Source: a virus. From it: DNA of 64,000 nucleotides. The position numbers and the translations under genes are program-made. The stretch's first letter is position 1. The number at the start of each line of letters is the position of its first letter. Location: the IMG/VR virus record IMGVR_UViG_3300010430_000017, positions 18,545 to 82,544 of that record, one strand, 5' to 3'. Positions 14,688 to 43,938 of this stretch are shown one piece after another. Below the pieces are notes generated by a model, which had not been told where the DNA came from, ran no database searches, and saw only the letters and a program-made list of their open reading frames with translations.

Positions 14688-15242
14688 ATGAAGCAGAACA
14701 TGTACAAAGAATTGACGTATGAGAAGGTGCGAGAATTGTTTGATTATGATCCTGAAACTGGAATTCTTCTGTGGAAGAAACCTAAGTATGGTAGGAGGAA
14801 GAACGGAGTTGCTGGAGGGTTAGATAATAAAGGGTATACACAGGTTACGTATAATAAGAAGAAATACCTTGTCCATAGATTAGCTTTTTTATGGATGAAA
14901 GGTTATAATCCTGAAAATAACATAGATCATATTGACAGAAACCCTTCTAATAATAAATGGAATAATTTAAGAGAAGTTTCTCATCAATGTAACATGCAAA
15001 ACAAAACCTGTGCCTATACTAATAAGTCGGGTGTTTGCGGAGTACAAAAGAGTGGTAAGTATGGGTGGGCCGCTTTTATCCGTGAAAATGGTAAATTAAT
15101 TTATATTGGGTACAGCGCTAACTTAGATAAAGCAGTTATGCTTAGATGGAAAGCTGAAGTAGCATATAATTATAATGGCTGTAATGAATTCTCAGAAGCT
15201 TATTTGTATCTTAAAGAAAGAAAATTATTACCGAAACAGTAG
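14688..15242 (+). CDS. HNH homing endonuclease (HNH_3 plus AP2-like)
   Basis: YDPETG..W, HRLA, IDHIDRNPSNNKWNNLR, N.SG..GV. Confidence 0.9.
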   Translation: MKQNMYKELTYEKVRELFDYDPETGILLWKKPKYGRRKNGVAGGLDNKGYTQVTYNKKKYLVHRLAFLWMKGYNPENNIDHIDRNPSNNKWNNLREVSHQCNMQNKTCAYTNKSGVCGVQKSGKYGWAAFIRENGKLIYIGYSANLDKAVMLRWKAEVAYNYNGCNEFSEAYLYLKERKLLPKQ

Positions 15243-15482
15243 GGTTTTTGTAAAGGCTACTTTTCTATTACTCTCTACAAATTCTTTTACTTTTAATGAG
15301 ATGGTAGTTTTTAGTAGCCTATTACTCACTCCTTATTTTTCTGAAGGGTATCCATTATTAATCAATTTATTTTCTTAGAGACAGGGTGTAAAAAGAGGTC
15401 TTATTTTCTGTAGAGATCTCAGGGTTTTTGTAATTTCTTATTTTTCTGGAGCATAGGGTGTAAACAGGTCCTACTTTTTCTG
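15241..15482. repeat. imperfect ~28-bp direct repeats in a non-coding block
   Basis: AGGGT....AA....CT(T/A)....TTTCT units at about 15241, 15383, 15421 and 15455. Confidence 0.6.
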
Positions 15483-15601
15483 TGAAGCCATAAAAATCTC
15501 ACACAATAGATCTTTTAATAAGTATTCATTTATTTATAATTAATTGAACACTTATTAATTTATTTATAAAAGTACCCACTAATTTAAAATAATATCGTTA
15601 C

Positions 15602-15676
15602 TGGTACAATTCTTGCAAATCCCTAAAATAATCATAAAAACTTTCCTGAAACAATGTTCATGGTACAATTCTTGCA
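15602..15676 (+). promoter_or_regulatory. two identical sigma54-type -24/-12 sites
   Basis: TGGTACAATTCTTGCA at 15602 and 15661 (GG-N10-GC). Confidence 0.6.
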
Positions 15677-16197
15677 ATTCCCATAAACTAAACAATGTTT
15701 CACCTCCAGGTATCATTTCTCGCCTTATATCTTCAATTCTAACAGCGTTTCAGTCACCCCCTGGTATCATCATATCAACTCCATCAAAACGTGTCTTAAA
15801 TTACTTGTTTTAATAGCAGAATTAAAAATCATGTTAGATAGTCTGTCACATCCTCTTAGTAATATCCAATTGTTTAACCTGATATATATTCAGTCAATCT
15901 CTTGGAATAATCCTACCTTATTATAATAGCTATAATTCTCTGTATAAAATCCCCAATGATTATAATGATTTAAAATAGTATGAAGAAATATTAAAAATTC
16001 CCTTGACGTATAGTCCCTGGCTATGTATAAATAATCATCGTTAACAAAAAAGGAAAGATCATGGAAAGAAGAAAAACAAACAGGCAACACAAAAGAACAA
16101 AATGCAAAAACCGTATAGTCCATGCTTGTGTTAATATGCTGAAACAACGAATGATTAATGATGTTAAATATAAAACCATTAAATAAAAAGGCATAGA

Positions 16198-16614
16198 ATG
16201 AAAGTATATCAACAAATAGCAAGTAAAATCCAGGCTATCGCTAATTGTGAAAAATCAAATAATGTTGAATGGTTTAACAGACACACAGGCGATCTATCAA
16301 GACTTGAGAAAGAATATTTCCCCCATGGTTCAGGCTTTGACAGTATAGTAGGGACAATTATAGAAAAATCAAGCCGGGATAAACTATATATCTTCTTCAA
16401 CTGGCATTGCATGAATGATGGTGGTTATTATGATGGATGGCTTAATCTTGATTTAATTGTAACCCCAGCTTTTCACGGATTTGATCTGAAAATTAAATGG
16501 TACACTAAATCAAATGATAATGATAAGAATAAGGTTCAGAAATATAAACCTTTGATTGAAGAATTCCTGTATGATGAATGGCAGCATACATTAAGTCAAG
16601 AAATTATGGATTAA
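16198..16614 (+). CDS. hypothetical protein
   Basis: PHGSGFD...H.MN..GYYDGW..VTPAF; downstream of promoter TTGACG(16003). Confidence 0.7.
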   Translation: MKVYQQIASKIQAIANCEKSNNVEWFNRHTGDLSRLEKEYFPHGSGFDSIVGTIIEKSSRDKLYIFFNWHCMNDGGYYDGWLNLDLIVTPAFHGFDLKIKWYTKSNDNDKNKVQKYKPLIEEFLYDEWQHTLSQEIMD

Positions 16615-16681
16615 GTGTTGACATAACGTAAACACAATATTATAAAAGACCATCGTTAACAATATAACAAAGGAAAATAAA

Positions 16682-17287
16682 ATGAGAACAGAAACAACTA
16701 ACATCTATAAGTTTGAAGAATTGTCAAAAGACTCACAGAACAAAGCTATTAATGGTTTTCGGAATAGTGAACACTACCTTTCATATGACTGGTGGGAATA
16801 CACAATTGATTATTGGAAGGCAAGCCTTAACCTTCTGGGGTTCAAAAATACTGAGGTCCGTTTTTCTGGTTTTTGGTCGCAAGGGGATGGCGCAAGTTTT
16901 ACTTGTGATTATATAAACAAAGAAGAAATAATTAACACAATTATTATGTCCGATTTGTGCAGCGTATCAACGGCTGAAAATTATCTGAAGAAATTTAACA
17001 ATGCTGAATCATTTTTGTTTGAATTTCATTTTTGTATAGAGAAAAGCAGTTCAAGATATGTACATGAAAATACTTGCTTTGTGAACTATGAAAATGGCGG
17101 CTCAGAATATTGGTCAAACATAGCGGACGAACTAACTATTTCTATAGAGTCTCTGCGCCTTATACTTTGTGATAAAATCTATAAAGATTTAAAAAATGAG
17201 TATGAATATTTAATGTCAAGGGCTGCTATTATAGAACATATCGGGGCCAATGATTATGAGTTTACCAGTGACGGGGAGCTTCATTAA
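16682..17287 (+). CDS. conserved phage early protein (FSGFWSQGDGASF family)
   Basis: Y.F.EL...Q.KA, FSGFWSQGDGASF, EYEY....AN.YEF..DG; own promoter at 16618. Confidence 0.75.
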   Translation: MRTETTNIYKFEELSKDSQNKAINGFRNSEHYLSYDWWEYTIDYWKASLNLLGFKNTEVRFSGFWSQGDGASFTCDYINKEEIINTIIMSDLCSVSTAENYLKKFNNAESFLFEFHFCIEKSSSRYVHENTCFVNYENGGSEYWSNIADELTISIESLRLILCDKIYKDLKNEYEYLMSRAAIIEHIGANDYEFTSDGELH

Positions 17288-17861
17288 TACTTGACATTGG
17301 CTACCAAACACGATAAAGAACAAGGAAACAATAATTAATATAAAGGAGATAAAGATGGCGACATACATTAACATAAAAGAAAATGGACAGACAGAAACAC
17401 TTGATGAATTCGAAACATACAGTGAAGCAAAGAAAATGCTTGTTGAGTATAAAATAGCGTCATCTTATTACTCCGGGGCTTATCTGTCGTCAAGATCAAC
17501 TAAAGAGTGGAAGGAAAACTAATGCAAAACCTTACATACAAAAATATATCAAGATTAGCTGAAGATTGTGAAAAGAAAGCACTTGCTAAGAAGAAAGCAA
17601 AGCTCGAGAAGAACAAAAGACAATTTGAGAAACTTTATCGGTTGTTTAATAAAGGAGGTAAATAATGCAAGGAATTAATAAAAAAGGTCTGGATATAATA
17701 TGCAACAAATCAATACAACTTTATAAACTCCAATTATCAACAAAACTTAAAGCTCAACGCCGGGTATTAGTCACACAGTTGATTAGCACAGGTAATGAAA
17801 AATATACTGTAGCTATTGAAACCCTGGACGCTGAATTGAATGAAATTATGGAGGTTGAGGT

Positions 17862-18278
17862 ATGAAAGTAAATGAATACGGAAAACAATTCTTTCTTTAT
17901 GCTAAAGGTTGGTATTATAAATCGGAGAATATCTGGGATGATCTTTTGAAACTTTACGCAATGCATCATTTTGTTGCTGAAGACTGTCATTATAAACCAG
18001 AAATTTTCCACAAGGTTACTAAATGTGCACTTGAATGCGTTATGAATAATTCCAGGGATAGAAGTATTAGTCTTATTCAAAAACTATTAGAAGAATTATC
18101 CCCTAATCATTGGTTAAGGGGGTTTAATAATGAAGATTATGTATATAAATATGAAGAGGAAGTATTAAACCTTTGTTTTAGTATCATGAGTATTGAAACT
18201 ATAGAGAATCTTAACCCTGAAAAAGATTGTGATTTTAATGTCTTGCCTAAAAGGAAAAATAAAACACAGGATTTTTAA
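17862..18278 (+). CDS. hypothetical protein
   Basis: ORF with GAGGT RBS. Confidence 0.6.
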   Translation: MKVNEYGKQFFLYAKGWYYKSENIWDDLLKLYAMHHFVAEDCHYKPEIFHKVTKCALECVMNNSRDRSISLIQKLLEELSPNHWLRGFNNEDYVYKYEEEVLNLCFSIMSIETIENLNPEKDCDFNVLPKRKNKTQDF

Positions 18279-18357
18279 AATAACCATTGACAAGCTGATA
18301 ATGGTTTAGTATATCTTACCCATCAACGAAGTTAACTGAATAGCAAAGAGGCACAAA

Positions 18358-19668
18358 ATGAAATACGAAGAATTAAACGAGAAAGTAGTCACAATGGTAG
18401 GTTCAGGAAGTTTTTGTGATGGGCTAACTATCTTGAGAGAAAAAAACAGACTTTACGCTGCCCCGGCGGTATCTAATCCCAAAAAGATAGGGTATTTTAC
18501 AGAGCAGAAAATTGATAAATGCAATGATTCAGGCTATTTTTTTCTACCTTACACAGAACTAATCCGTGAAAAATTCGGTATCATGACTAAGCCCGGTAAA
18601 TTCTTTAAACATTGTCTGCCTGATTCAACTGATAAAGATATTCAAAAAATGGTGGCTGAATATTACACAATGATAAATGAATTTACTGATATCTCTAAGT
18701 CTGATTTCCATTTATCAAATGATATTAAAAAGTATTACCATTCTAATATTTATGAAGGTTACGGCGGCAGTTTAGGGAATAGCTGCATGAAACATACAGA
18801 ATGTCAAGATTATCTTACATTCTATGAAAATTATAATGTCAAAATCTTAGTATTAAAATCAGGTGATAAGATAAAAGGACGGGCCTTGATATGGGAAAAT
18901 GTAAATTTCCCTGGATTGTGTAAAACTTTGGATTTTATGGATAGGATTTATGTCAATAACGATAACGATATTGAATTATTTAAATCCTATGCTGACAAAC
19001 ACAATATAGTTCATAAATATAAACAAAGCTATAATGACAAAGAAACATTTGTTTACCAACAACAACAATTTGAAGATCATATTATAATTGAACAAACAAA
19101 TAGTCTTGATATTGATTCATGGCCCTATGTTGATACCATGGCAAATATGGATGATAATGGCAATCTCTGTAATATTTCTACGTCCGAATATTATATCAAT
19201 TTAGAAGAAACAGACGGGAGTAACTCAGAGACTATAGGAAGGGCAATTTGTGAAGATTGCGGTAATAGATTTGACTCAGAAAATGAAGGAATTTATGTAG
19301 AAAACCATGGCCATGTTTGTGATAATTGCCAAGAGGAATATAGTTATTGTGAAGATTGCGACACCTATTCGCACTATGATAATGGTTCGTATGTTGAGGA
19401 TGAACAACGGTTTATTTGTGATAGTTGTTTGAGTGAAGATTATTATTGTTGTGAAGCATGTAACAACTATCACAAATATGATAAAGACTTTGAACATGAT
19501 TATAGTCATTACTGCCGGGAGTGTTTTGATGAGTTATCTGAGCAATGCGAAGATTGTAATTGTATAGTTGATAAAGACGATATCAAGTGTTATGATGATA
19601 ACGAATACTTGTGTAGTGATTGTTATAATGATAGAGTTGACGCTGAAGAAACTGAAGAGGTGGCATAA
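18358..19668 (+). CDS. protein with SCM..RALIW..DRIY core and C-terminal tandem CxxC repeats
   Basis: GSLGNSCM, GRALIW, MDRIY, WPYVDT, then eight CxxC motifs in an acidic tail; promoter at 18287. Confidence 0.8.
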   Translation: MKYEELNEKVVTMVGSGSFCDGLTILREKNRLYAAPAVSNPKKIGYFTEQKIDKCNDSGYFFLPYTELIREKFGIMTKPGKFFKHCLPDSTDKDIQKMVAEYYTMINEFTDISKSDFHLSNDIKKYYHSNIYEGYGGSLGNSCMKHTECQDYLTFYENYNVKILVLKSGDKIKGRALIWENVNFPGLCKTLDFMDRIYVNNDNDIELFKSYADKHNIVHKYKQSYNDKETFVYQQQQFEDHIIIEQTNSLDIDSWPYVDTMANMDDNGNLCNISTSEYYINLEETDGSNSETIGRAICEDCGNRFDSENEGIYVENHGHVCDNCQEEYSYCEDCDTYSHYDNGSYVEDEQRFICDSCLSEDYYCCEACNNYHKYDKDFEHDYSHYCRECFDELSEQCEDCNCIVDKDDIKCYDDNEYLCSDCYNDRVDAEETEEVA

Positions 19669-20561
19669 TGAAGATTCTCAAAGAAATGTACATGATTAAC
19701 AGCGCTTCAGGTAATGAAAATGAACTCCAAATCTATATCAGAAAACAACTGGATAGTATTGGTATTGAATATTATATTGACAAATACAATCAAACATACA
19801 ATTTGAATCACAAGCACAAGCCATTAGTTTCTGCCCATGCTGATCAGGTGGGAACAAAACCCCTAAGATGGATTAAAGAATCAAACGATAAAATATACAG
19901 TCATGATAACCTTGGCGCTGATGATAAAAATGGTGTATTTATTGTCCTTGAGTTGTTAAAGAAGTATCCCAATTTGAATTTCATTCTATCGAATCAAGAG
20001 GAAGTCGGTGGACTATGTGATAAATTATTGGAGCAAAACAAGGATAAATTAAAATCAATACCTTACGGGCTTATATTTGACAGAAAAGGTAACGGTGATA
20101 TCATTGGAACAGGTAATCAATATTGCTGTGAAGAATTCGAGCAGGATTTGGAGGCAGTAGGTGAAGATTTTGGTTATAAAGCAAATATCGGTGTTTGGAG
20201 TGATGCGGATACTATATCGGATTATATCAGTTGTGTGAACCTTAGTTGTGGATATTATAACGCTCATACAGCTAACGAGTACACAATAAAATCCGAAGTC
20301 ATTAATTGCTTTGATTTTAGTTGTGAGATAATCAATAAGATTACTAAACGATACCCAGCGCCGGATAAAACTTTCGATTATTACATGGATGAATGGACAG
20401 CGCAGGAAATGGATAGTTTTAATCATGGTTGCTGCCCATGTTGCGGAGTTGATTTTGAATATAATCTATCGCATGATTGTTATTGTGATAATTGCGGCCT
20501 TGACCTAATTGACTTTGAAAATGAAATATACTTTGAATCCGAAGATTATTTATACGATTAA
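19668..20561 (+). CDS. M20/M28-family zinc peptidase-like protein with C-terminal Zn ribbon
   Basis: SAHAD, LGADDKNG, QEEVG, DRKG, YYNAHT metal ligands; CPCC..CDNC tail. Confidence 0.85.
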   Translation: MKILKEMYMINSASGNENELQIYIRKQLDSIGIEYYIDKYNQTYNLNHKHKPLVSAHADQVGTKPLRWIKESNDKIYSHDNLGADDKNGVFIVLELLKKYPNLNFILSNQEEVGGLCDKLLEQNKDKLKSIPYGLIFDRKGNGDIIGTGNQYCCEEFEQDLEAVGEDFGYKANIGVWSDADTISDYISCVNLSCGYYNAHTANEYTIKSEVINCFDFSCEIINKITKRYPAPDKTFDYYMDEWTAQEMDSFNHGCCPCCGVDFEYNLSHDCYCDNCGLDLIDFENEIYFESEDYLYD

Positions 20562-21065
20562 GGACATACTATGAAAAATCACTACATGTTTATCTGCAAA
20601 GGCACAAAACAAAAACAACCAGGAAAGAAATTTGACAATCTCAACAATATAAAACAACATCAAAAAAGAATCATTGAGAGTAATAGGTACAGAAATGGAA
20701 GATAAACTATCCGAAAGAATTGTTGAACTATCTAAGCAACGAAGGCTTGCAAGAAAGAAACTTCAAACAACTAAAACTATAGAGATATCCGGGCAGATTA
20801 AAGAATGTAAGATAATGTTAAATTTCTTGTTGACAGACAAACATTATCTTGATATGTAATAACTATGAATAATACTAATAAAAAAGGGGAGTGCAATGAT
20901 TGAAAATTTCACAGATATGGTAGGAAAAACAATTAAATCAGTTGACGAGTCTTCACAAAATTGTGTGGTAATTACATTCACCGACGATACAAAAGTGTCT
21001 GTTTATGCTGAAAGTCACTCGTCGCCTTATAGTTTTCCATACTTTGAGTTCGAAACAGAAGACTA

Positions 21066-21323
21066 ATGAGCAAACTTACCGCATACGACCACGAAAGCAT
21101 ATTGTTGCATTTCTCGGGGAGATTATACCAAAGATATAATATCTTTAAGAATGCCAGAATACTACAACAGGATTTCAAGCGTCTGGTCAGTAGTGGTGAG
21201 GCTGTTAAGATGTGGGATTATGATAAGACAAAGGCGGCTTATGTTACACGGTATGAACAAGCTAAGGTGCTGTTTGTGTGGTCCCATGAACATAAGATGG
21301 CTAAAACAGCACTAACTTTGTAA
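21066..21323 (+). CDS. hypothetical protein
   Basis: HF..R..QRY ORF. Confidence 0.55.
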   Translation: MSKLTAYDHESILLHFSGRLYQRYNIFKNARILQQDFKRLVSSGEAVKMWDYDKTKAAYVTRYEQAKVLFVWSHEHKMAKTALTL

Positions 21324-21330
21324 CTTTCTA

Positions 21331-21349
21331 AATGATAATGATTATCATT
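21331..21349. promoter_or_regulatory. Fur-box-like operator
   Basis: AATGATAAT-G-ATTATCATT, a perfect 9-1-9 palindrome containing TGATAATnATTATCA. Confidence 0.7.
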
Positions 21350-21350
21350 A

Positions 21351-22003
21351 TGACAGGAATAGGCAAGTTTTTGGTTTTGGTTGATAATAAAACATAAGAT
21401 TATTCTGCATAATACCTGCTATTAGCTTAGGCTTTAAAAATAGTGCTTTAAATTGACGTTTAGGTAAGGGTTGATACGATGGTATAGACCAATGTCTAAA
21501 ACGCTCTTAAAAAGGCAATTTATACGCACTGAGCTAATACTTTTGCAATAGAATAATCCTTAGTTGATCTCCAGGATTACACAAAACTCATTGGCATCTA
21601 TTTTGCAGAATGATTTGCAAAAGAAAAAACAAAGAAAAGAAAAAGAAAAAAAGAAAAGAACCAAAAGAAAAAAAGAAAAAGAAAAGAAAATAAAAAGAAA
21701 ATATTTATAGGGTATAAAAGAACATTATTCGCTTCGCTCATTGTAGCCTTTCACTGCGTTAGCTTTTCTTTTATTCTTTTTACAACACTAAACCTTCCTA
21801 TCTCTTGGCTGATTATGGGTTGTTTAAGGCTTAAGTTATTAAAATCTTTGTCTTTTGGACAAGTATTAAGACTTTTAGTAGTTACTTTTAAGTCTTGTGC
21901 AGTTAAAGCATTGTTGTGGGCAAAGAATGTAAATTCTGACAAGTGTATCTGGTGTTCTTTTGTATAGAAACAAATAGGTAATTTGACAGGAATAGGCAAG
22001 TTT
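21351..22003. repeat. 20-bp direct repeat bracketing a non-coding block with a purine tract
   Basis: TGACAGGAATAGGCAAGTTT at 21351 and 21984; (A)nG tract at 21619-21701. Confidence 0.8.
21592..21607 (+). promoter_or_regulatory. sigma54-type -24/-12 site
   Basis: TGGCATCTATTTTGCA. Confidence 0.6.
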
Positions 22004-22511
22004 CTACAATAGTCGAAATAACATTATTAACTTAAAATAATCGTTGACTTAGTTTCTGGTATGAGATAAGAAATATCTTAAATAAATAAAGGAGAAAACA
22101 AATGCTTATACTTTGGATTATTACAGGTTGTTTTATTGGGTTTATGGGTGTAGAGGTTATAGCTTCAATTACTAAAACTCAATGGCCAGTTTTATTAAAT
22201 TTAATGGCGTCTTTTGTTGGAGGGTTTTTAGCTTACAATTGGGCTATCGGGGTTTTCTAATGAAGTACATAACGTTTAACATAATCGGATTTTTACTGGT
22301 TTTATTATTAGCTGAAATTGATGGTAGTTCAATGAGAGAAAAAGAAATCTATGTGCCGCCTGTATTATCAATAGCTATTGACAAAACAAACATACCTATT
22401 CATTGTCTGGGGATTCAATCCGATACAAGAAAGAAATTTAGTACAAAAACATTGACAAGGAATGGTCGTAGGGTTTATAATAATTGTAAGTATTAATATA
22501 AAGGATATAAT

Positions 22512-22817
22512 ATGAAAGTATTAGTGATTTTCGATCTAATCCCAGAAGAAACAAAAAAGGCTATCGTGGATATGACTCAAGAGGAATATGATTACTTCAA
22601 ACAAGGTGACGGCTGTATCATCGGCACGATGGGGAATACAGATGAACAAGAGGTAATTGTGAATGTGATAAATAATGCTTTTTGTGAGGATGAAAAATGC
22701 AAAGAATATTGCGAAAATGACCAAGAGCTTAAGTATTTCGGTAAATTCGAACATCAAGAGAATACTTCGGATCTACGTGGTGTTGATTATATGATTTATT
22801 GCGGGTGCTTTCTTTAA
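22512..22817 (+). CDS. hypothetical protein
   Basis: ORF after promoter TTGACA(22452)..TATAAT. Confidence 0.65.
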   Translation: MKVLVIFDLIPEETKKAIVDMTQEEYDYFKQGDGCIIGTMGNTDEQEVIVNVINNAFCEDEKCKEYCENDQELKYFGKFEHQENTSDLRGVDYMIYCGCFL

Positions 22818-22859
22818 GCTGAGGGGATGTAAAGCGATAAAATAAAAAAGGGGAATCAG

Positions 22860-23510
22860 ATGAAGACTTTTGAATATGATGGTAAACAGTTTGAAGCGGT
22901 AATAATGAATGATCCTGGTACTTGTAGGTCATGCTCTTTCAGAGAAATGGATAGTTGCCCAAGAGACTTAACGAATTATTGTGACGATCATCCTATTGTA
23001 TTCCATGAGATCAAGAAAAAAGAATTTGATGCAGTTAAGGTTGAAGAAAACAAAGAAAGTTTTGTAGTAAAACATAACAACAAAGAATACGAATTCAGGG
23101 CTTTTACTTTGATTGATCTATATAAAAAGAAATTTCATAGAAGAGAATTTATCAAGCTAATGGAAAGAATGGAGGAAATTAACTTTGGTCCGGGAGAAGA
23201 AGTTATCTCAGAAACTGAATTTCTGCACCTTCGTGTTTTGTCAAAAAATATTAGTTGGCTTATTGATAATGGCTTCGGGAAACAAATTGTCAAAGAAACG
23301 ATGTTGGAACCGGGGATGGTGCTTGTGAGTGATAAACCGGAGAAAGAGGAACTTGTGTATATTAATAAGGATAAACTTATAATGGGTAAGGGCTGGATTC
23401 TTAATCGGTCCTGGTACGATAAAGGGCAGGCAAAACTTTACCCATGTAGGACACTTGAGAAATTAAATAAGTATTCTTTGTTTACATGGAAAATTAAACC
23501 CACTGACTAA
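22860..23510 (+). CDS. hypothetical protein
   Basis: 216-aa ORF with an N-terminal CxxC.F...C module. Confidence 0.65.
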   Translation: MKTFEYDGKQFEAVIMNDPGTCRSCSFREMDSCPRDLTNYCDDHPIVFHEIKKKEFDAVKVEENKESFVVKHNNKEYEFRAFTLIDLYKKKFHRREFIKLMERMEEINFGPGEEVISETEFLHLRVLSKNISWLIDNGFGKQIVKETMLEPGMVLVSDKPEKEELVYINKDKLIMGKGWILNRSWYDKGQAKLYPCRTLEKLNKYSLFTWKIKPTD

Positions 23511-23529
23511 GTAAACTTATTTACTGTTT

Positions 23530-23571
23530 AAATCCCAGTATGTTATTTCTGATAGTAACATACTGGGATTT
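23530..23571 (+). terminator. intrinsic terminator
   Basis: AAATCCCAGTATGTTA/TAACATACTGGGATTT 16-bp stem with T-rich tail. Confidence 0.8.
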
Positions 23572-23750
23572 ATTATTTGTGCTTTAAAAGCACAGTATTT
23601 CTTTACTGAGGCACTACTAAACGGTAGTTTATGAAGTATCTGAATAGCAATTACTTGTAATTGAATGTGAAAATATACCAGGGAATATAATATACAATGA
23701 TCTTCGGATACTGTGGTATTAGCGGGTTTGATGGGGGTATATATTGTGTG

Positions 23751-23766
23751 ATACTATATATTGTGG
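23751..23766. promoter_or_regulatory. NrdR-box-like site
   Basis: ATACTATATATTGTGG matches 14/16 of acaCwAtATaTwGtgt; a partial copy lies 17 bp upstream. Confidence 0.45.
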
Positions 23767-23847
23767 TTTGTTTTTATTAAGCTATTAATTTTTTATTTAA
23801 TTTGTATTTGTTTTTTATGAAACTGTTTGTTTGTTTTAAGCCCTCAA

Positions 23848-23961
23848 TGCAATCTCCGTGCCACTAAGTTGATATATCAGTAATATACTTAAGATATATC
23901 AAAAGAATACTATAGATATATCACTGGTATACCAAAGAAATACCATGCAATAATCCTACCA
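23848..23961 (-). promoter_or_regulatory. two sigma54-type sites flanking phased GATATATC palindromes
   Basis: Minus strand TGGCACGGAGATTGCA (23863-23848) and TGGTAGGATTATTGCA (23961-23946); GATATATC at 23871, 23893 and 23915. Confidence 0.65.
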
Positions 23962-24000
23962 ATTAATCCCACAACAAAATAAATAAAAATACAAAATAAC

Positions 24001-24516
24001 CATTGACAAGTATAATTTTGTTTGATATATAGGATCTATGATAAACAATAAATCAAATATCAATCAGGAGGACACTATGTCAAAAGATTATGCTCTTATA
24101 AATTCAATGCCGGATTCGTCTTATGATTATTCCGCTGGATACTGCCATAGAATGGTATCTTACTTTAAACTGAATCACCCCAATATGGTAAACAGTATTA
24201 AAGCCTGGGAAGATGAAGCAATAGTTAGAGCAGAACAACGGGAGAGTATCTGGGGGGAGGATCTTTCCGAGACTGAAACTACCGAAGAAACCACAACGGA
24301 TCAAACAAGTACTGAATACCCCAACCTTGATAACTCCATCCCTGAAGACAGCACACCGGTTGAGATACTCACAGGACCCTTTACAGGAATAACAGCGTAC
24401 ACAAGAGATAATAGGCTGTTTGGTATGGTGTTTGGTCTTGCCCTTGAGATTAATCCTACAACAAAACAATATTAATTAAAATAATCATTGACAAGTATAA
24501 TTTTGTTTGATATATA
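24001..24516 (+). repeat. duplicated 31-bp sigma70 promoter
   Basis: CATTGACAAGTATAATTTTGTTTGATATATA is identical at 24001 and 24486. Confidence 0.85.
24077..24475 (+). CDS. hypothetical protein with Thr/Glu-rich linker
   Basis: ATG after AGGAGG, downstream of the first copy of the duplicated promoter. Confidence 0.7.
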   Translation: MSKDYALINSMPDSSYDYSAGYCHRMVSYFKLNHPNMVNSIKAWEDEAIVRAEQRESIWGEDLSETETTEETTTDQTSTEYPNLDNSIPEDSTPVEILTGPFTGITAYTRDNRLFGMVFGLALEINPTTKQY

Positions 24517-24790
24517 TGATCCATCAAACAAAAACTAAGGAGCTAACGACATGAGACATTTAATCACCGCCAGCATTATAGAACTAACAATCATGGGTTT
24601 ACTGGTAATGGATATGAACAATCACGGTATCGTCTCCCAGTTGTTGTTTGCAGCAATCAAGACTTACATCAACCCCGAATTGACCTGGAGTTAATAATGA
24701 AAAGACTAATCAACATATACATCATTGCACCGATTGTAGCTAATACAATCATAATATTGATAATTAATAGCTTATAGGAAAGGAATTGAG

Positions 24791-25093
24791 ATGAGAAATA
24801 CAATCAAGAATAAAACAGAGTTAAGATACACAATCAAGAACGCCATAGGCAACACAGATAGTCTTGACTACGTAGAATTTTATCAGGACTGGACATGGGA
24901 TATCATGGGATGCAATACCTGGACTACTAACGATGTATGCTATAGGTGTCAGCTGTCCGAGCTTGCATGGGCAATGGATTGGGAAAGCTCAGTGGATGAG
25001 ACTATAACAGAGAAATTCCGTGATTTAGAATCACATATTATTTCTTGGAACCAAGCTACCAAGGAACACCGGCGGGAGCTTTGTCCTTGGTAA
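24791..25093 (+). CDS. hypothetical protein
   Basis: ORF with AAGGA RBS. Confidence 0.6.
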   Translation: MRNTIKNKTELRYTIKNAIGNTDSLDYVEFYQDWTWDIMGCNTWTTNDVCYRCQLSELAWAMDWESSVDETITEKFRDLESHIISWNQATKEHRRELCPW

Positions 25094-25107
25094 TATAACC
25101 AACAATT

Positions 25108-25138
25108 AAACCCCTGGAGTTAATTCCCCAGGGGTTTT
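25108..25138. terminator. terminator at the convergence of the two transcription arms
   Basis: AAACCCCTGG/CCAGGGGTTT stem with flanking A and T runs. Confidence 0.8.
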
Positions 25139-25177
25139 GTTTGTCTTGTATGATAACAATGTTCACAAGAATTAACT

Positions 25178-25260
25178 TGCAATTCTTATGCCAGTAACAA
25201 TGTTAATATTATTTATCAAGATATTTTCGATTTACCATCGTTCTTGGTATGGTTATTGCT
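25178..25260. promoter_or_regulatory. divergent pair of sigma54-type sites
   Basis: Minus strand TGGCATAAGAATTGCA (25193-25178); plus strand TGGTATGGTTATTGCT (25245-25260). Confidence 0.6.
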
Positions 25261-25368
25261 TGTGTGTTAAACACCTAACTCTCTATTTTTATTATATATC
25301 CTAATTCTCTCTATGAAGTCTTTTATATCTTTGGTATTTTACTAATAAATAGTTCTCTTTTGCATAAT

Positions 25369-33195: not shown

Positions 33196-33618
33196 ATTCT
33201 CTCCTCTTTTTATCGGACTTCCTCGAAAGCAATGCCCTTGTAATAAAGCTTCTTCATTTGTTGATAGAATGTGCGTCTATCCCCGCACTCAATTGCTCCA
33301 GTAGAAATTCCTTTCCTGGTTTGTGTTGTGTATTGCTTATCCTTTGGGGAATAGTCTTTGTATACAGCTTTCTTAATTCTTTTGGCTTTGGATTGTCTCA
33401 TTATTCCTCCTCAAAGTAATGCTTAATATTCTCAGTATCAATCTCAAAATCACTCAACTCAAGAGTTGCACACTGATGACAAAGTGTTGGGGAATCATAC
33501 CCCTGTGACTCCCATAAATCATCAGCTTTCTTTTCGAAGTCTTCTTCATTCTTTGCAAGAACACTACCAATACACGTAAACCCGTACGTTTTAATATAGA
33601 CTGGTATCTCTTTTGCCA

Positions 33619-34320: not shown

Positions 34321-36633
34321 TTATCCACATTTACTAAATCCGCACTCCTTGCAAATCAGACATCCACCCTCATTGACATATGATGCTAAGCCGCATTCAG
34401 GACAGATTTTTCCAACAGATACTTCAGGATCTTCAATAGGAAGATACTTAGAAAGAATCCTCTTAAGAATTCCAGCAGCATCTACCATGGAATACGTACT
34501 CTTATTTAACTGATCTATAATCTCCTCCACAGGAATCCCGTATCTAAGGGACATTGAGCATACTCTGCATAGCGAATCCCATAGACTATTACGCTCCTGG
34601 AATAGAACAGGATTAAAAGTGCCATCTCCATTATGCCCACCCTCTTTAGGTAATTTAACAAATACCTCTATTGGATTCCCTTCCTGATCAATACTTACAT
34701 TAATGTAAATTTTACTTCCTTTCCAAGAAACTCTATGCCTCACTGCTGTCTCTTCATCAAGAAGCTCTTTCTCGTATAGTTCCGGCATTACGCATTCAGC
34801 TACTTCTTCAGTATCCGTACTTGAAAGAACACCTTCCTTGCAACCATCTCGAAAAACAGTGACACCTTTGAGACCCTTGGACCAAGCGTACTTATAAATC
34901 TCTTGGATAGTCTCCTTTTTGGTATCATTCGAAAGATTAATAGTAGAACTGATCGAGGCATCAATATTCTTCTGTAAAGCGGCTTGCACATTAATCCTAT
35001 CTTTCCAATGAATCTCATTAGCTTCAACGTAGCCCATCTTGTTCTTTGCTTGCTCAAGAGTAAGTCCTTTGAATTCATCTAAGTTATCAAGCATATGCTG
35101 TGCAGCCGGGAGATGGATGAAGGAGTATTCTTTATTATCAATTCTATTCTTTCTTTTATAGGAAAACTTAAATATAGGTTCAATTCCTGACGAACAATTC
35201 CCAGAAACAATACTAATACTACCACAAGGACCAATTGTGTTGAGAGATGTATTAGCAAGACCATAATCTAAGATATTCTCTTTTAATGCACCTTCTATCT
35301 TATACCATGGGTTATCAACAAAATTATTCCTTGCTGCTGTTGAACTCATAGCCTCACAGCATTTACCTTGGACAGCAAGATCATTGGATGCAACTAATTG
35401 TGAATACATTATAGAATCAGTGATATCATTAGCAAGATCTATGGAATCTTCATCTCCGTAAGTAAAACCTAATTTTTGACATAGATCTCCAAACCCTGTT
35501 AACTCAACACCAATCCTTTTACCAAATTTATCCACTGATCTTTGCTCAGCTAATGGGTGCAAGTCCTCATTCATATCAGAAAACAAGTTCATCAAGCGTG
35601 TAGCTACTTCTGCGTCCTCTTCTAAGGAAACAATATCAAGTCTCCCATGCAAAAGATAAAAAGGGAGCACAAACGCGCCAAGCAGGCAGTTTGAATCTCC
35701 AGCCATGGGTTGTTCAGAACATGCATTGTATCCAAACGGCTTCAAAGATTTATCAATATAAGTCCCAAAAGTATTTTTCTGTACTGTTGTGATGTATGAA
35801 GTTCCTGGATCTCCACAAATCCAAGCTGCCTCCGACAATTGACTCAAAACATCTCTTGCTTTGATAGTTTTATACTCTTTAAATTTACCTCCTATTTCAA
35901 ACCACTCATCATAATCACCATCCCAGCAAGAGTTATATAATTCTTTATCAGCCTCTATATCAGGAAAACAAAACGTCCAGTCCTCATCATTCTCTACAGC
36001 AGTCATAAATGAGTCAGTAAGTTTTAATGTTATATTAGCATTATTAATGGCCGGCAGTTCTTTTGTAAAAACATCTTCTTCAAAAACTTTCTCTGGCTTT
36101 GCTTTACTCCAAATAAAATCAAGTGTATCTGGGTGCCGACAATCAAGAGAGATCAGCAATGCTCCACGTCTACCAAACTGGCAGATTGTTTTAGTTAACT
36201 CAGAAAAACTTGGCATAAAACTAACAGCGCCGGATGAAGTTCTTGCTGCATTCTCTACGGAATGTCCTTTTGGTCTTAGAATGGATATATCTGTACCAAC
36301 GCCTCCTCTATAAGAGAAGGTTCTCGCAATCTGTTTATGTGCTTCATATATCCCTTCAATACTGTCATGCCTGATAGGAACATAATAGCAGTTACTAAAG
36401 CTGCTGGTTGCGCCTGAATTACAGGCACTCAGAATACTCCCAGCGGGAATGAACTTACCACTTCTTAGAAGTTCTTTCTGATCCTTGTCCGTGATGTTAC
36501 AACAATCAATAACTCCTTCAATTACATCTTTGATATCTTCATGCCCATATTTATTCTTTGTGACCATGGCCACGAAATCTTCATGCTCTGCAATACTCGT
36601 CTCCAACAACTCCTTTGTAATAACCTCAGTCAA
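34321..36633 (-). CDS. nrdJ: class II (B12-dependent) ribonucleotide reductase with C-terminal TSCPD and Zn ribbon
   Basis: FSNCY, GGVG, RRGA, NACSEQ, CLLG, PCGSIS..SSGIEP, SIS.TIN, KGVTVFRDG, CPECG..C.ECG.SKC; no nrdB seen in the window. Confidence 0.9.
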   Translation of the reverse strand: MTEVITKELLETSIAEHEDFVAMVTKNKYGHEDIKDVIEGVIDCCNITDKDQKELLRSGKFIPAGSILSACNSGATSSFSNCYYVPIRHDSIEGIYEAHKQIARTFSYRGGVGTDISILRPKGHSVENAARTSSGAVSFMPSFSELTKTICQFGRRGALLISLDCRHPDTLDFIWSKAKPEKVFEEDVFTKELPAINNANITLKLTDSFMTAVENDEDWTFCFPDIEADKELYNSCWDGDYDEWFEIGGKFKEYKTIKARDVLSQLSEAAWICGDPGTSYITTVQKNTFGTYIDKSLKPFGYNACSEQPMAGDSNCLLGAFVLPFYLLHGRLDIVSLEEDAEVATRLMNLFSDMNEDLHPLAEQRSVDKFGKRIGVELTGFGDLCQKLGFTYGDEDSIDLANDITDSIMYSQLVASNDLAVQGKCCEAMSSTAARNNFVDNPWYKIEGALKENILDYGLANTSLNTIGPCGSISIVSGNCSSGIEPIFKFSYKRKNRIDNKEYSFIHLPAAQHMLDNLDEFKGLTLEQAKNKMGYVEANEIHWKDRINVQAALQKNIDASISSTINLSNDTKKETIQEIYKYAWSKGLKGVTVFRDGCKEGVLSSTDTEEVAECVMPELYEKELLDEETAVRHRVSWKGSKIYINVSIDQEGNPIEVFVKLPKEGGHNGDGTFNPVLFQERNSLWDSLCRVCSMSLRYGIPVEEIIDQLNKSTYSMVDAAGILKRILSKYLPIEDPEVSVGKICPECGLASYVNEGGCLICKECGFSKCG

Positions 36634-36634
36634 T

Positions 36635-36910
36635 TTATTCCTCCAATACCTTCAAAATATTATCAATTCTTGTTTTTATATTCTTGAATTCATAGATGAT
36701 CTGTTCTTTCTCGTTTCTGAGATAATCATCTTCCTCGTCATCCCATCCTCGATCAGAGTCTCCATGTAGTAAGCAGAAATCCATCCAATAAACTGCTTCT
36801 AAATATCCATTAGTAGTTCTGTAAAAGTGGTCACATTCAAGACCCCAATCATCAGTTCCAACTCCAGATTCAGCTAATAGGTCTACTATTTCATGAGTTA
36901 CTTCCTTCAT
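36635..36910 (-). CDS. acidic hypothetical protein
   Basis: ORF with GAGG RBS. Confidence 0.6.
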   Translation of the reverse strand: MKEVTHEIVDLLAESGVGTDDWGLECDHFYRTTNGYLEAVYWMDFCLLHGDSDRGWDDEEDDYLRNEKEQIIYEFKNIKTRIDNILKVLEE

Positions 36911-37126
36911 AACCTCTCCTATATAATAAAATTAACTTCTCCAACACAACCACTCTGATACTTTGTCTGAAATTTATAGCACCATCCACAATCTTTGTCA
37001 AGACATTTGTTTGGTTTAGTAGATAATCCCTCACCTATCTTCCACGCTCTATAAACAGAATTATTCTGTATAATAGCTTCTTCGTATACATAATCACTGT
37101 AAATATCAATACAAGCTTGTTCTGCT

Positions 37127-37339
37127 TTACTCATTTTTATCCCTTTCCAAAGTACTTAAGAGATCCCCGCACAAGTTAATTTCAGACGGAATACACTTAA
37201 GCACTACTTTTACTCCTTCGTTGAATGGAAATTCAATATGAAGTTTTGAGATACACAAGTCCCCTGTAATATCCTCTCCTTTTGAGTTTAGTATACGAGT
37301 ATCATTAGTTGCTCCTGTTTCATTTATAACCTTAATCAT
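37127..37339 (-). CDS. hypothetical protein (paralog family)
   Basis: DTRILNSKGEDITGDLCI...VVLKC resembles 62733..62957. Confidence 0.6.
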   Translation of the reverse strand: MIKVINETGATNDTRILNSKGEDITGDLCISKLHIEFPFNEGVKVVLKCIPSEINLCGDLLSTLERDKNE

Positions 37340-43205: not shown

Positions 43206-43380
43206 TTATTACTACTACTCTACACTAAAAAATACTACTTGTCAAGAACTTTATTACAAAAGATAAATAAAACTTCTTCTTTGAAAGAAGACAGCATTTA
43301 TACTACGTATTATTATTATAGTCAATAGAAAAATTAAAATAATTATTGATTTTATTTATATATTGTGGTATACTGTTTGC

Positions 43381-43938
43381 ATGAATAAAAAAAGAAAACA
43401 AGATTACCCCGAGTACGCACATTGGAGGGCGATGATTTATAGGTGCTATCCTTCGGATAATATCTCTACATCGTGTGAAAGAAAGGGGGTAGGTGTCTGT
43501 GACCGGTGGAGAGGGTGGGATGGGTTTTGGAATTTCTTAAAAGATCTTGGGGAGAAGCCATCAAAAAAATACAGGCTGAAAAGAAAAGACAAAAACAGTG
43601 ACTTTAGTAAGAGAAATTGCACTTGGAGTAAGAAAAAAACATACAAAGTAAAATCCAATGAGATCAAAACTAATGTTAAGACGCTCTTTTATAAGAACAA
43701 AGAGTACACTGTGAGAATGGTGTGCGAGAAATTTAATTTAAAAGCTTGTACTGTGTACTACAGAATAAAGGCAGGGTGGTTAGATAGCGATATAGTAGAA
43801 ACCCCAGTGAATGAGATACCAATTTCATTAAGGACAGAGGAGAACATGAAATATGGAAGATACTCCTATTTCTTAAAATTTGGTATCTATAAAAATAGTA
43901 AAAGTAACAATTTTGTAACTTTTACTCAAGATAATTGA
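43381..43938 (+). CDS. degenerate HNH-like endonuclease
   Basis: W.AM..RC, G.GVC.RW....NF..D.G.KP, R.D....F...NC.W; catalytic D/H appears eroded. Confidence 0.65.
   Translation: MNKKRKQDYPEYAHWRAMIYRCYPSDNISTSCERKGVGVCDRWRGWDGFWNFLKDLGEKPSKKYRLKRKDKNSDFSKRNCTWSKKKTYKVKSNEIKTNVKTLFYKNKEYTVRMVCEKFNLKACTVYYRIKAGWLDSDIVETPVNEIPISLRTEENMKYGRYSYFLKFGIYKNSKSNNFVTFTQDN

What the first reader, a model, noticed from the sequence alone, without database searches (positions are those of the whole stretch)
15602..25260. Seven sigma54 (-24/-12) consensus sites confined to non-coding blocks
Seen: TGGYA-N6-TTGCW with exact GG-N10-GC spacing at 15602(+), 15661(+), 21592(+), 23863(-, TGGCACGGAGATTGCA), 23961(-), 25193(-) and 25245(+). 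All are intergenic, and several point antisense or toward no ORF, while neighbouring genes have their own sigma70 promoters. A rough composition estimate gives fewer than one chance hit in 64 kb; my scan was by eye. Known: sigma54 holoenzyme binds such sites as a stable closed complex until an AAA+ activator acts. Inference: the sites may be decoys that sequester sigma54-RNAP, roadblocks (for example during staged DNA entry), or host-state-sensing antisense promoters.
Basis: partly seen in the sequence, partly recalled or inferred. Interest (0 to 1): 0.8.

Follow-up and report, generated by a model that had tools for sequence, protein, structure and literature searches.

The report
Sigma-54 sites in phage non-coding blocks
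An uncultured marine phage packs its gene-free stretches with DNA motifs that match the landing site of the bacterial sigma-54 RNA polymerase, and similar clusters occur in many other phages, which suggests that phages use or trap this host factor.

Summary
TGGYA-N6-TTGCW occurs 9 times in the window against 0.48 expected. Seven sites lie in four ORF-free blocks totalling 2,574 bp, where 0.014 are expected. Only the N6 spacing and only this order of the two boxes are enriched. One-mismatch variants are not enriched.

The window is part of an 82.5-kb phage genome with terminal repeats, from marine sediment. The phage encodes no detectable sigma-54, sigma-70-family factor or AAA+ activator.

The two nearest full-length relatives, and the cultured Rheinheimera and Alteromonas phages, also hold clusters in ORF-free gaps. 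Positions not used in the search follow the classical sigma-54 consensus (YR after TGGYA, p = 1e-5).

Best reading: real docking sites for the host sigma-54 polymerase. Whether they act as activator-gated promoters or as a trap is open. Orientation is unbiased, with 9 of 22 sites pointing at a gene. One site is not conserved at its homologous place in a relative.

The parts
15602..15617 (+). Sigma-54-like site TGGTACAATTCTTGCA, the first of a tandem pair 59 nt apart. It also reads as an extended -10 element (TGnTACAAT).
15661..15676 (+). Sigma-54-like site TGGTACAATTCTTGCA, flanked by AACAATGTT palindromes. The core plus ATTCC recurs in relative G001 at 37285 as CGGTATATTTCTTGCAATTCC.
21592..21607 (+). 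Sigma-54-like site TGGCATCTATTTTGCA. The predicted start (about 21618) lies at the first base of a 90-nt polypurine tract.
23848..23863 (-). Site TGGCACGGAGATTGCA, a 12 of 12 match to TGGCACG-N4-TTGCW. It is antisense to the flanking genes. Three GATATATC palindromes lie just upstream.
23946..23961 (-). Site TGGTAGGATTATTGCA, antisense. It is 14 of 16 identical to G001 36914(-).
25178..25193 (-). Site TGGCATAAGAATTGCA between two AACAATGTT palindromes. The predicted start (about 25167) lies 60 nt before the hairpin at 25108-25137.
25245..25260 (+). Site TGGTATGGTTATTGCT, antisense to the radical-SAM gene. It lies inside an 81-nt stretch that is 78% identical to G001 40772-40851, where the GG is not kept (TGACA).
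33554..33569 (-). Exact match inside the start of a minus-strand gene, with a near-match at 33602(+) across the start codon. Probably chance or an internal site.
43366..43381 (+). Exact match that coincides with a sigma-70 promoter (TTGATT-17-TATACT preceded by TG) 50 nt upstream of the first gene of the structural block.
15243..16197 (.). Non-coding block A, next to an HNH endonuclease gene. It shares patches with G001 36500-37330 (CTTATTTTCTG repeats, CTTATTAATTTAAAATA).
21324..22101 (.). Non-coding block B, bracketed by a perfect 20-bp direct repeat (21351-21370 and 21984-22003). It contains a polypurine tract at 21618-21710.
23511..24076 (.). Non-coding block C. It holds a terminator hairpin at 23529-23572, three GATATATC palindromes spaced 22 bp apart (23871-23922), and a strong sigma-70-like promoter at 23993-24036.
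25094..25368 (.). Non-coding block D, at the point where the plus-strand and minus-strand gene blocks converge. It holds AACAATGTT at 25155 and 25196.

Best explanation
The sites are genuine recognition sites (-24 GG / -12 GC promoters) for the host's sigma-54 RNA polymerase holoenzyme. Selection keeps them in the gene-free blocks between early operons of this phage. The phage encodes neither sigma-54 nor an activator, so host holoenzyme would dock there as a stable closed complex. It would start RNA only if a host enhancer-binding ATPase (bEBP) acts. In that case four sites would give long-leader, read-in transcripts for downstream operons, and four would give antisense or short non-coding RNAs. 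What is shown: the motif, its statistics, its consensus-like unsearched positions, and its recurrence in relatives and in many viral contigs. What is inferred: binding by sigma-54, and every functional consequence. My odds are about 0.6-0.65 that sigma-54 or its holoenzyme binds these sites. Given binding, I rate activator-gated promoters and occupancy as the function (see rival 1) as roughly equal.
For: There are 9 sites against 0.48 expected, and 7 in 2,574 non-coding bp against 0.014 expected. Only spacing N6 is enriched (9 against 0-4). Only the order TGGYA then TTGCA is enriched. The one-mismatch class is at background. One site is a 12 of 12 match to TGGCACG-N4-TTGCW.

Positions 6-7, which were not searched, are pyrimidine-purine in 19 of 30 distinct sites pooled from six phages, against a background of 0.25 (p = 1e-5). 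Position 7 is a purine in 25 of 30. This matches the classical consensus CTGGYAYR-N4-TTGCA, which I recall from memory.

The E. coli ChIP-seq site table lists bound TGGTA sites and many TGGCATGA... sites (PMC4591121, section 6, passages seen).

Relatives show the same feature. G001 (major capsid protein 69% identical, syntenic) has 5 sites against 0.73 expected (0 of 200 shuffles), 3 of them within 320 bp of a 1.3-kb ORF-free block. G002 has 3 sites within 230 bp of an ORF-free block. Barba1A has 5 against 1.0 and PT11-V22 has 6 against 0.65, both 0 of 200 shuffles, mostly in long unannotated gaps.

A motif-blind blastn of the four blocks against G001 returned the sigma-54-like cores as islands of similarity in otherwise unalignable DNA.

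Those 120 loci hold 546 sites at N4 spacing against 1-7 at other spacings, fall into 43 groups, and range from 31 to 64% GC. A motif this constant across such varied phages argues for a universal host factor.

No phage gene for sigma-54, a bEBP or a sigma-70-family factor was found. There is precedent: Pseudomonas phage YuA has a sigma-54-like promoter (PMC10914365, section 16 read).

Hints of promoter function in the window: the predicted +1 of 21592 lies at the first base of a polypurine tract, the +1 of 23848(-) lies at the start of an A/C-rich tract, and a hairpin lies 60 nt after 25178(-).
Against: Six of the 9 sites have T where sigma-54 sites usually have C (TGGTA). In the E. coli table the counts are TGGCA 52 and TGGTA 4. 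All TGGTA sites also read as TGnTAnnnT extended -10 elements, and 43366 is clearly a sigma-70 promoter.

The host is unknown, so the presence of rpoN is untested. No activator gene was found and no shared upstream activator site.

Orientation shows no bias toward genes. By my hand tally, 9 of 22 non-coding sites in six phages point at the next gene and 13 are antisense.

The predicted transcripts show no structure beyond a terminator hairpin and match no Rfam family. The DNA downstream of the sites is not conserved in G001.

At the one place where the flanks align with G001, site 25245 is not conserved (TGGTA against TGACA), and site 25178 has no counterpart.

Enrichment is absent in some relatives: G004 has 3 against a control of 4, G005 has 0, ICP1 has 4 against 4, and DC31 has 4 with 8 of 200 shuffles reaching that.

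In other viral contigs the sites sit 26-28 nt apart, or face to face 2-5 nt apart. That is too tight for holoenzymes to bind side by side.
Confidence: 0.5

Rival explanations
1. Sigma-54 sponge. The sites bind host sigma-54, or its holoenzyme, and binding itself is the function. As the phage genome replicates, the copies multiply the sites and drain a scarce sigma factor. This would shut down sigma-54-dependent host programmes such as stress, motility or nitrogen responses. Transcription from the sites would be irrelevant.
For: Orientation is unbiased (9 of 22 sense; hand tally). Only the 16-21 bp cores, not the downstream DNA, resemble each other between this phage and G001. No activator gene or shared upstream site was found. 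Face-to-face pairs occur in G002 (3-nt gap), G001 and PT11-V22 (30-34 nt). In 120 IMG/VR loci the clusters hold 2-10 sites, only 11 of 120 lie inside an ORF, the preferred geometries are 26-28 nt same-strand, 2-5 nt face-to-face and 10 nt back-to-back, and in the largest lineage only 56 of 199 sites share the strand of the downstream terminase gene. In E. coli, sigma-54 holoenzyme sits on most of its sites without transcribing (PMC4591121, passages seen). That sigma-54 is a low-copy protein is recalled, not tested here.
Against: The window has only 7-9 sites, loosely spaced at 59-98 nt, and mostly of the weaker TGGTA type. Trapping holoenzyme would also trap core polymerase, which the phage needs. 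The spacings in the arrays are too tight for simultaneous holoenzyme binding. No experiment of any kind exists. Three predicted starts in the window look promoter-like.
Confidence: 0.22
2. A different DNA-binding protein, either phage-encoded or a small host protein, recognises the 16-mer. The likeness to the sigma-54 consensus would then be mimicry or coincidence. The blocks would be origins, partition sites or packaging sites built from repeats.
For: Tight periodic packing (26-28 nt; units of + site, 5 nt, - site, 10 nt) resembles iteron or centromere arrays. In the window the cores sit inside palindromic composites, AACAATGTT-13-TTGCAA-13-AACAATGTT, at 15650-15699 and 25155-25204 (family D19). 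They also lie beside 22-bp-spaced palindromes. G002 and DC31 have iterons or DnaA-box-like repeats next to their sites. In the largest IMG/VR lineage the array lies upstream of the terminase gene in 46 of 46 loci, and a median of 327 nt upstream of an unknown 175-aa protein in 37 of 37 loci.
Against: The motif is constant in phages of 31-64% GC and in 43 neighbour-gene groups that share no common protein. A phage-encoded binder would be expected to drift in specificity. The unsearched positions follow sigma-54 preferences. Neither the direct-repeat nor the palindromic version of the half-sites is enriched in this genome. No candidate protein is shared by this phage, Barba and PT11-V22 beyond replication and structural genes.
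Confidence: 0.13
3. A mixed bag. The TGGTA sites are ordinary sigma-70 promoters with an extended -10 element (TGnTAnnnT) and a shared start region. The three TGGCA sites are a small chance surplus or a few true sigma-54 sites.
For: All five distinct TGGTA...TTGCW sites have T at position 9, as a -10 hexamer requires. TGGTAYAAT recurs at clear promoters in this phage, for example 39694(-) with a TTGACA at the right distance, 14620(+) and 43366(+). Site 15602 scores 9 of 12 as a sigma-70 promoter with TG.
Against: TGGTA-N6-TTGC alone is enriched at N6 (7 against 0-4 at other spacings), which a -10 element does not predict. Apart from 43366, and weakly 15602, there is no -35 box. T at position 9 is common in sigma-54-like sites generally: 16 of 30 in six phages and 43% in IMG/VR clusters. 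The three TGGCA sites cannot be -10 elements, yet one of them shares the AACAATGTT composite with a TGGTA site. The G001 counterpart of 15661 has CGG, which breaks the TG of an extended -10 but keeps GG-N10-GC.
Confidence: 0.12

Closest known systems
Sigma-54 (RpoN) dependent -24/-12 promoters of bacteria
   Same: A bipartite motif with invariant GG and GC exactly 10 bp apart and the boxes TGGCA/TTGCW. A pyrimidine-purine follows TGGYA. One site is a perfect TGGCACG-N4-TTGCA.
   Different: The sites lie in a virulent-type phage genome that has no activator gene. Most carry T at -22. Half point away from genes. No upstream activator site was recognised. Leaders are 460-600 nt where the sites are in sense.
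Orphan and intragenic sigma-54 binding sites mapped by ChIP-seq in E. coli (Bonocora et al. 2015, PMC4591121; abstract and passages seen)
   Same: Many sites are not placed as promoters of the next gene. They are bound by transcriptionally silent holoenzyme. They include antisense sites and TGGTA variants.
   Different: In E. coli there are 135 high-confidence sites (the paper estimates more than 250 in all) in a genome I recall as about 4.6 Mb, most of them inside genes and biased to the sense strand. Here there are 7 sites in 2.6 kb of non-coding phage DNA with no sense bias.
Sigma-54-like promoter of Pseudomonas phage YuA (cited in PMC10914365, section 16 read; the original Ceyssens 2008 paper was not seen)
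   Same: A phage without its own polymerase that carries a host sigma-54 type promoter.
   Different: YuA has a single promoter assigned to a start site. Here there is a cluster of sites in several blocks, recurring in relatives and, as arrays, in many uncultured phages.
Sigma-70 promoters with an extended -10 element (TGnTATAAT)
   Same: Six of the 9 sites contain TGnTAnnnT. Site 43366 is such a promoter and has a -35 box.
   Different: The fixed TTGCW box 2 nt after the hexamer is not part of that promoter class. The TGGCA sites lack the hexamer.
Iteron and centromere arrays of plasmids and phages (for example 43-bp sopC-type repeats; recalled)
   Same: Periodic arrays of a 16-bp site in direct and inverted order in non-coding DNA, seen in the IMG/VR loci.
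   Different: Those arrays are specific to each replicon's own protein. Here the same motif recurs across unrelated phages and equals a host sigma factor's consensus.

Membership tests
Sigma-54 dependent (-24/-12) promoter | GG and GC dinucleotides exactly 10 bp apart within TGGCA and TTGCW boxes | tested here: met
   There are 9 exact sites. Only this spacing and this order are enriched.
Sigma-54 dependent (-24/-12) promoter | Extended consensus TGGCAC(G)-N4/5-TTGCW, with C at -22 and YR after TGGYA | tested here: inconclusive
   One of 9 sites is a perfect match. Three of 9 have TGGCA and 6 of 9 have TGGTA. Six of 9 have YR. Pooled over six phages, YR occurs in 19 of 30 sites against 0.25 expected. 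In the E. coli bound-site table, TGGTA is a minority (4 against 52 occurrences).
Sigma-54 dependent (-24/-12) promoter | A host that makes sigma-54 (rpoN) | not testable with these tools
   The host is unknown: the source is a marine sediment metagenome. The nearest cultured kin infect Rheinheimera, Alteromonas and Vibrio. That these genera carry rpoN is recalled, not tested.
Sigma-54 dependent (-24/-12) promoter | An enhancer-binding AAA+ activator with binding sites upstream | tested here: not met
   There is no PF00158 match in this phage or in 5 related phages at E <= 1-10. No shared upstream repeat was found. A host activator that acts from solution or from unrecognised sites is not excluded.
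Sigma-54 dependent (-24/-12) promoter | A transcription start 11-13 nt after the GC that depends on rpoN | not testable with these tools
   No RNA data exist for this phage.
Sigma-54 dependent (-24/-12) promoter | Placed upstream of, and pointing at, a gene or RNA gene | tested here: inconclusive
   Four of the 8 non-coding sites in the window are in sense, with leaders of 50-600 nt, and 4 are antisense. Over six phages, 9 of 22 are in sense (hand tally). No Rfam family and no significant fold lie downstream.
Sigma-70 extended -10 promoter | TGnTAnnnT, with or without a -35 box 17 bp upstream | tested here: inconclusive
   The hexamer criterion is met for the 6 TGGTA sites. A good -35 box is present only at 43366 and a weak one at 15602. 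The criterion is not met for the 3 TGGCA sites.
Phage-encoded sigma factor promoters | A sigma-like gene in the phage | tested here: not met
   There are no matches to PF04542, PF08281 or PF04552. Divergent factors of the T4 gp55 type would escape these models.

The most novel reading that the evidence does not exclude
Clusters and arrays of sigma-54 consensus sites in non-coding phage DNA form a widespread, undescribed DNA-based device. Phages would use it to capture the host's sigma-54 or its holoenzyme, either to switch off sigma-54-dependent host responses or to couple the infection programme to host activator states. This window would be a loose, TGGTA-rich member of that class.
Probability: 0.25. 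Interest if true: 0.9.

Novelty: new variant of a known kind. Interest (0 to 1): 0.7.

Why it matters
Sigma-54 is the one bacterial sigma factor that parks polymerase on DNA until an ATPase fires it. It controls motility, nitrogen use, stress responses and many surface functions. Phage use of sigma-54 rests so far on isolated cases such as phage YuA.

This window, its relatives, two cultured marine phages and at least 43 groups of uncultured phages all hold improbable clusters of the motif in gene-free DNA. If sigma-54 binds them, there are two possibilities:
- Many phages tie part of their programme to host physiological state through host activators.
- Many phages titrate a scarce host sigma factor with DNA alone, which would be a new kind of host take-over.

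Either case is directly testable in cultured systems: Barba phages on Rheinheimera and PT11-V22 on Alteromonas. Either would also give meaning to the long non-coding blocks that annotation pipelines leave blank.

Tried and rejected
Rfam found nothing at gathering thresholds over the window. Between 15000 and 25600 there were only two sub-threshold His-leader matches on the terminator hairpin.

Folding of six predicted transcripts gave one significant result, the hairpin at 25108-25137 (z = -3.45). The others had z from -0.98 to +1.36.

Close relatives were sought with single proteins in viral contigs and in metagenome contigs, and none was found. The composite AACAWTGTT-13-TTGCAA-13-AACAWTGTT pattern was not found in viral or metagenome contigs. 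A radical-SAM alignment gave 53 loci, but these share only that gene with the window. They served as an unrelated-phage control: 20 sites in 844 kb at N6, against 1-14 at other spacings.

Sequencing runs: no RNA holder was listed. Two DNA runs of marine sediment metagenomes hold the stretch and may be its source.

These ideas were rejected:
- A direct repeat of TKGYA half-sites, or a palindrome.
- LuxO-type TTGCA-N3-TGCAA sites in the window (0 at that spacing).
- DnaA-box clusters in the window (28 against 24 expected, none in the blocks).
- AGGGTGTAAA as a shared upstream site (only two exact copies, both in block A).

The Barba phage family is too uniform (at least 96.7% identical) to test site conservation. 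PT11-V22 has no relatives in the phage collection. The array-bearing IMG/VR loci L154 and L192 have no DNA match in cultured phages. The terminase of their largest lineage is at most 29% identical to any cultured phage.

Pfam and PHROG searches of 20 neighbouring proteins gave no functional hint beyond an HNH endonuclease, a peptidase and a radical-SAM protein.

Supplementary tables of PMC10914365 (start sites) and PMC4933390 (phage RNAs) were closed. They might list starts near comparable sites in PAK_P3-like phages. Literature searches turned up no description of sigma-54 site clusters or arrays in phage genomes. That covers only the held library.

Full report
**What the DNA is.** The window is bases 18545-82544 of an 82,544-bp IMG/VR virus record with a 123-bp direct terminal repeat. 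Its GC content is about 35%. Only two marine-sediment metagenome runs hold it. It encodes a DNA polymerase, a primase-helicase, ribonucleotide reductase, a radical-SAM protein, terminase, portal and a major capsid protein. The genes form three blocks: plus strand to 25093, minus strand from 25369 to about 43019, and plus strand from 43432. The nearest cultured kin are distant:
- Terminase is 43% identical to Rheinheimera Barba phages.
- Polymerase is 37-38% identical to ICP1-like Vibrio phages.
- Capsid protein is 29% identical to Alteromonas phage PT11-V22.

**The observation.** All seven reported sites exist, and there are nine exact matches to TGGYA-N6-TTGCW against 0.48 expected. The two extra ones are 33554(-), inside the first codons of a gene, and 43366(+), which coincides with a sigma-70 promoter (TTGATT-17-TATACT with TG). 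The seven lie in four blocks without convincing ORFs. These blocks total 2,574 bp at 29% GC, where shuffling predicts 0.014 sites. Seven of nine sites lie in the 19% of the window that is non-coding, which gives p = 2e-4.

The motif is sharply defined:
- Over the whole genome, spacing N6 gives 9 sites and every other spacing from 0 to 15 gives 0-4.
- Only the order TGGYA then TTGCA is enriched. The reverse order, direct repeats and palindromes are not.
- One-mismatch variants are at background: 16 against about 14 expected.

Sites 15602 and 15661 are one tandem duplication.

**Is it sigma-54-like beyond the searched letters?** One site, 23848(-), matches TGGCACG-N4-TTGCA at all 12 consensus positions. 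I pooled the 30 distinct sites found with the same pattern in this phage, two relatives and three cultured phages. Positions 6-7, which the pattern leaves free, are pyrimidine-purine in 19 of 30 against a background of 0.25 after TGGYA (p = 1e-5). Position 7 is a purine in 25 of 30. This is the classical CTGGYAYR-N4-TTGCA form of the consensus, which I recall from memory. The table of E. coli sites bound in vivo contains a few TGGTA sites and many TGGCATGA... sites that resemble the phage sub-family TGGYATGRT... (PMC4591121, section 6, passages seen). Against this, TGGTA is rare there (4 occurrences against 52 for TGGCA) but makes up 6 of the 9 sites here.

**Who could read it?** Profile searches of all six frames find none of the following in this phage: a sigma-54 DNA-binding domain, a sigma-54 activator AAA+ domain, sigma-70 region 2 or sigma-70 region 4. 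The first two are also absent from G001, G002, Barba1A, PT11-V22 and DC31. Any sigma-54 and any activator must therefore come from the host, which is unknown.

**Relatives.** An alignment of capsid homologues led to two useful records:
- G001: 84,387 bp with terminal repeats, capsid 69% identical, syntenic over most of the genome.
- G002: 59,515 bp, capsid 60% identical.

G001 has 5 exact sites against 0.73 expected (0 of 200 shuffles). Three of them lie within 320 bp of a 1.3-kb ORF-free block, and two near-sites with CGG lie in the same block. G002 has 3 exact sites within 230 bp of an ORF-free block that also carries four iteron-like repeats. Two of those sites face each other 3 nt apart.

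A blastn of the four window blocks against G001, which knows nothing of the motif, returned the sigma-54-like cores as short islands:
- Window 15662-15681 matches G001 37286-37305.
- Window 23944-23963 and 25241-25263 both match G001 36911-36933.

The 40 nt on either side of these cores are at random-level identity. Block A and the G001 block also share other patches, such as the CTTATTTTCTG repeats.

One result goes the other way. An 81-nt stretch (window 25219-25299) aligns at 78% with G001 40772-40851. There the TGGTA of site 25245 reads TGACA, and site 25178 has no counterpart. So positions turn over. At least that site is not conserved in place.

**More distant phages.** The same pattern gives these counts:

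| Phage or record | Sites | Comparison |
|---|---|---|
| Barba1A | 5 | 1.0 expected; 0 of 200 shuffles reach it |
| PT11-V22 | 6 | 0.65 expected; 0 of 200 |
| Limnohabitans phage DC31 | 4 | 1.08 expected; 8 of 200 |
| ICP1 | 4 | backward control 4 |
| Vibrio phage 277E43-1 | 1 | backward control 1 |
| Eight further capsid relatives | 0-3 each | no clear excess |

In Barba1A, three sites lie in unannotated gaps. Two of them are about 150-160 nt upstream of genes gp043 and gp054, in sense. In PT11-V22, three sites lie in a 1.6-kb gap between convergent genes, two of them face to face 30 nt apart. In DC31, one site sits among TGTGGATAA repeats that look like DnaA boxes. By hand tally over the six phages, 9 of 22 non-coding sites point at the next gene and 13 are antisense.

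**A wider check.** I scanned IMG/VR for two strict sites 25-55 nt apart on one strand. The complement of the pattern, which is equivalent to reading it backwards and has the same composition, gave 3 stretches. Findings in the 120 loci (1.075 Mb, GC 31-64%):
- There are 546 strict sites at N4 spacing against 1-7 at any other spacing from 0 to 9.
- Clusters hold 2-10 sites. Eighty-two loci have at least 3 and 32 have at least 5.
- Only 11 of 120 clusters lie inside an ORF of 120 aa or more.
- By shared neighbouring proteins the loci fall into 43 groups. One lineage holds 66 loci, one holds 10 and encodes a protein-primed polymerase, three groups are pairs and 38 are singletons.
- In the large lineage the array lies upstream of the terminase gene in 46 of 46 loci, yet only 56 of 199 sites share its strand.
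- The preferred geometries are same-strand starts 26-28 nt apart (67 cases), face-to-face gaps of 2-5 nt (50 of 72) and back-to-back gaps of 10 nt (23 of 71).

These loci were selected by the motif, so only the contrast with the control, the spacing specificity of the additional sites and the geometry count as evidence. Part of the excess comes from tandem duplication. Ninety-four of 206 pairs differ enough in free positions and flanks to look independent.

**Interpretation.** A 16-bp asymmetric motif stays the same in phages of very different composition and gene content. It also equals a host factor's consensus down to unsearched positions. It is most simply read by that host factor, so I give about 0.6-0.65 that sigma-54 or its holoenzyme binds the window's sites.

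What binding achieves is open. Three features of the window favour promoters:
- The predicted start of 21592(+) falls on the first base of a 90-nt polypurine tract.
- The predicted start of 23848(-) falls at the start of an A/C-rich tract beside three 22-bp-spaced palindromes.
- A 12-bp-stem hairpin follows 25178(-) by 60 nt.

Several features favour a role in which occupancy itself matters (a trap, or poised polymerase):
- Orientation is unbiased.
- There is no activator gene or recognisable enhancer.
- The downstream DNA is not conserved.
- The predicted RNAs are unstructured.
- Other phages show face-to-face and tightly packed arrangements, in which productive transcription or even simultaneous holoenzyme binding is hard to picture.

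That same tight packing keeps alive a third reading: a smaller protein, or sigma-54 without core, is the binder. A fourth reading holds that the TGGTA sites are merely extended -10 sigma-70 promoters. It explains site 43366 and perhaps 15602. It fails for the TGGCA sites, for the N6-specific TTGC box, and for the G001 counterpart of 15661, which loses the TG but keeps GG-N10-GC.

**Compared with what is known.** Sigma-54 promoters and silent, orphan sigma-54 sites are well described in bacteria (PMC4591121). A single sigma-54-like promoter is reported for Pseudomonas phage YuA (PMC10914365, section 16). My seven literature searches found no description of clusters or arrays of such sites in non-coding phage DNA. 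The library is limited, and supplementary tables were closed. I therefore class the finding as a new variant of a known kind. If the trap reading proves right, it has a real chance of being something more.

Noticed in passing
IMG/VR loci L127-L246, e.g. L154:8236-8447, L131:18-256, L135:12539-12706, L192: Dense arrays of 3-10 canonical sigma-54-type 16-mers in mostly non-coding DNA of many uncultured phages. They show regular geometries: 26-28 nt same-strand, face-to-face pairs 2-5 nt apart, and 47-nt units. L192 has 23 sites in 6.5 kb.
   Followed up: partly
L146 (both ends), L129, L138, L139: In a group of 10 contigs that encode a protein-primed type-B DNA polymerase, the tandem pair of sigma-54-like sites sits at the contig ends. 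In L146 it sits at both ends in inverted order, as if inside terminal inverted repeats.
   Followed up: no
window 21351-21370 and 21984-22003: A perfect 20-bp direct repeat brackets 613 bp of block B. The right copy forms a sigma-70-like promoter (TTGACA-16-TACAAT) and the left copy lacks the -10 element. Block B looks like an insertion into a promoter.
   Followed up: partly
window 25219-25299; G001 40772-40851 (L121:772-851): An 81-nt non-coding stretch at the junction of the convergent gene blocks is 78% identical between this phage and G001. It is not an ORF. Both phages carry TGAACAT-type repeats to its left. Its function is unknown.
   Followed up: partly
window 15650-15699 and 25155-25204: Two 50-bp composites, AACAATGTT-13-TTGCAA-13-AACAATGTT, lie in the same orientation. 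The TGGYA box is on opposite strands in the two copies.
   Followed up: partly
window 23871-23922: Three GATATATC palindromes are spaced exactly 22 bp apart, directly upstream of the perfect-consensus site. This is iteron-like and may mark an origin or an operator array.
   Followed up: no
window 21618-21710 and 21763-21781: A 90-nt almost pure A/G tract is followed about 100 nt later by a 19-nt pyrimidine stretch that is 95% complementary to part of it.
   Followed up: no
window 14688-15242: An HNH homing-endonuclease gene (phrog_99, E = 7e-55) abuts non-coding block A.
   Followed up: no
L069 (Limnohabitans phage DC31, record 19820-20750): A 930-bp unannotated gap carries several TGTGGATAA / TTATCCACA repeats, which look like DnaA boxes, around a sigma-54-like site. 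That site is identical in all 16 bases to one in G001.
   Followed up: no
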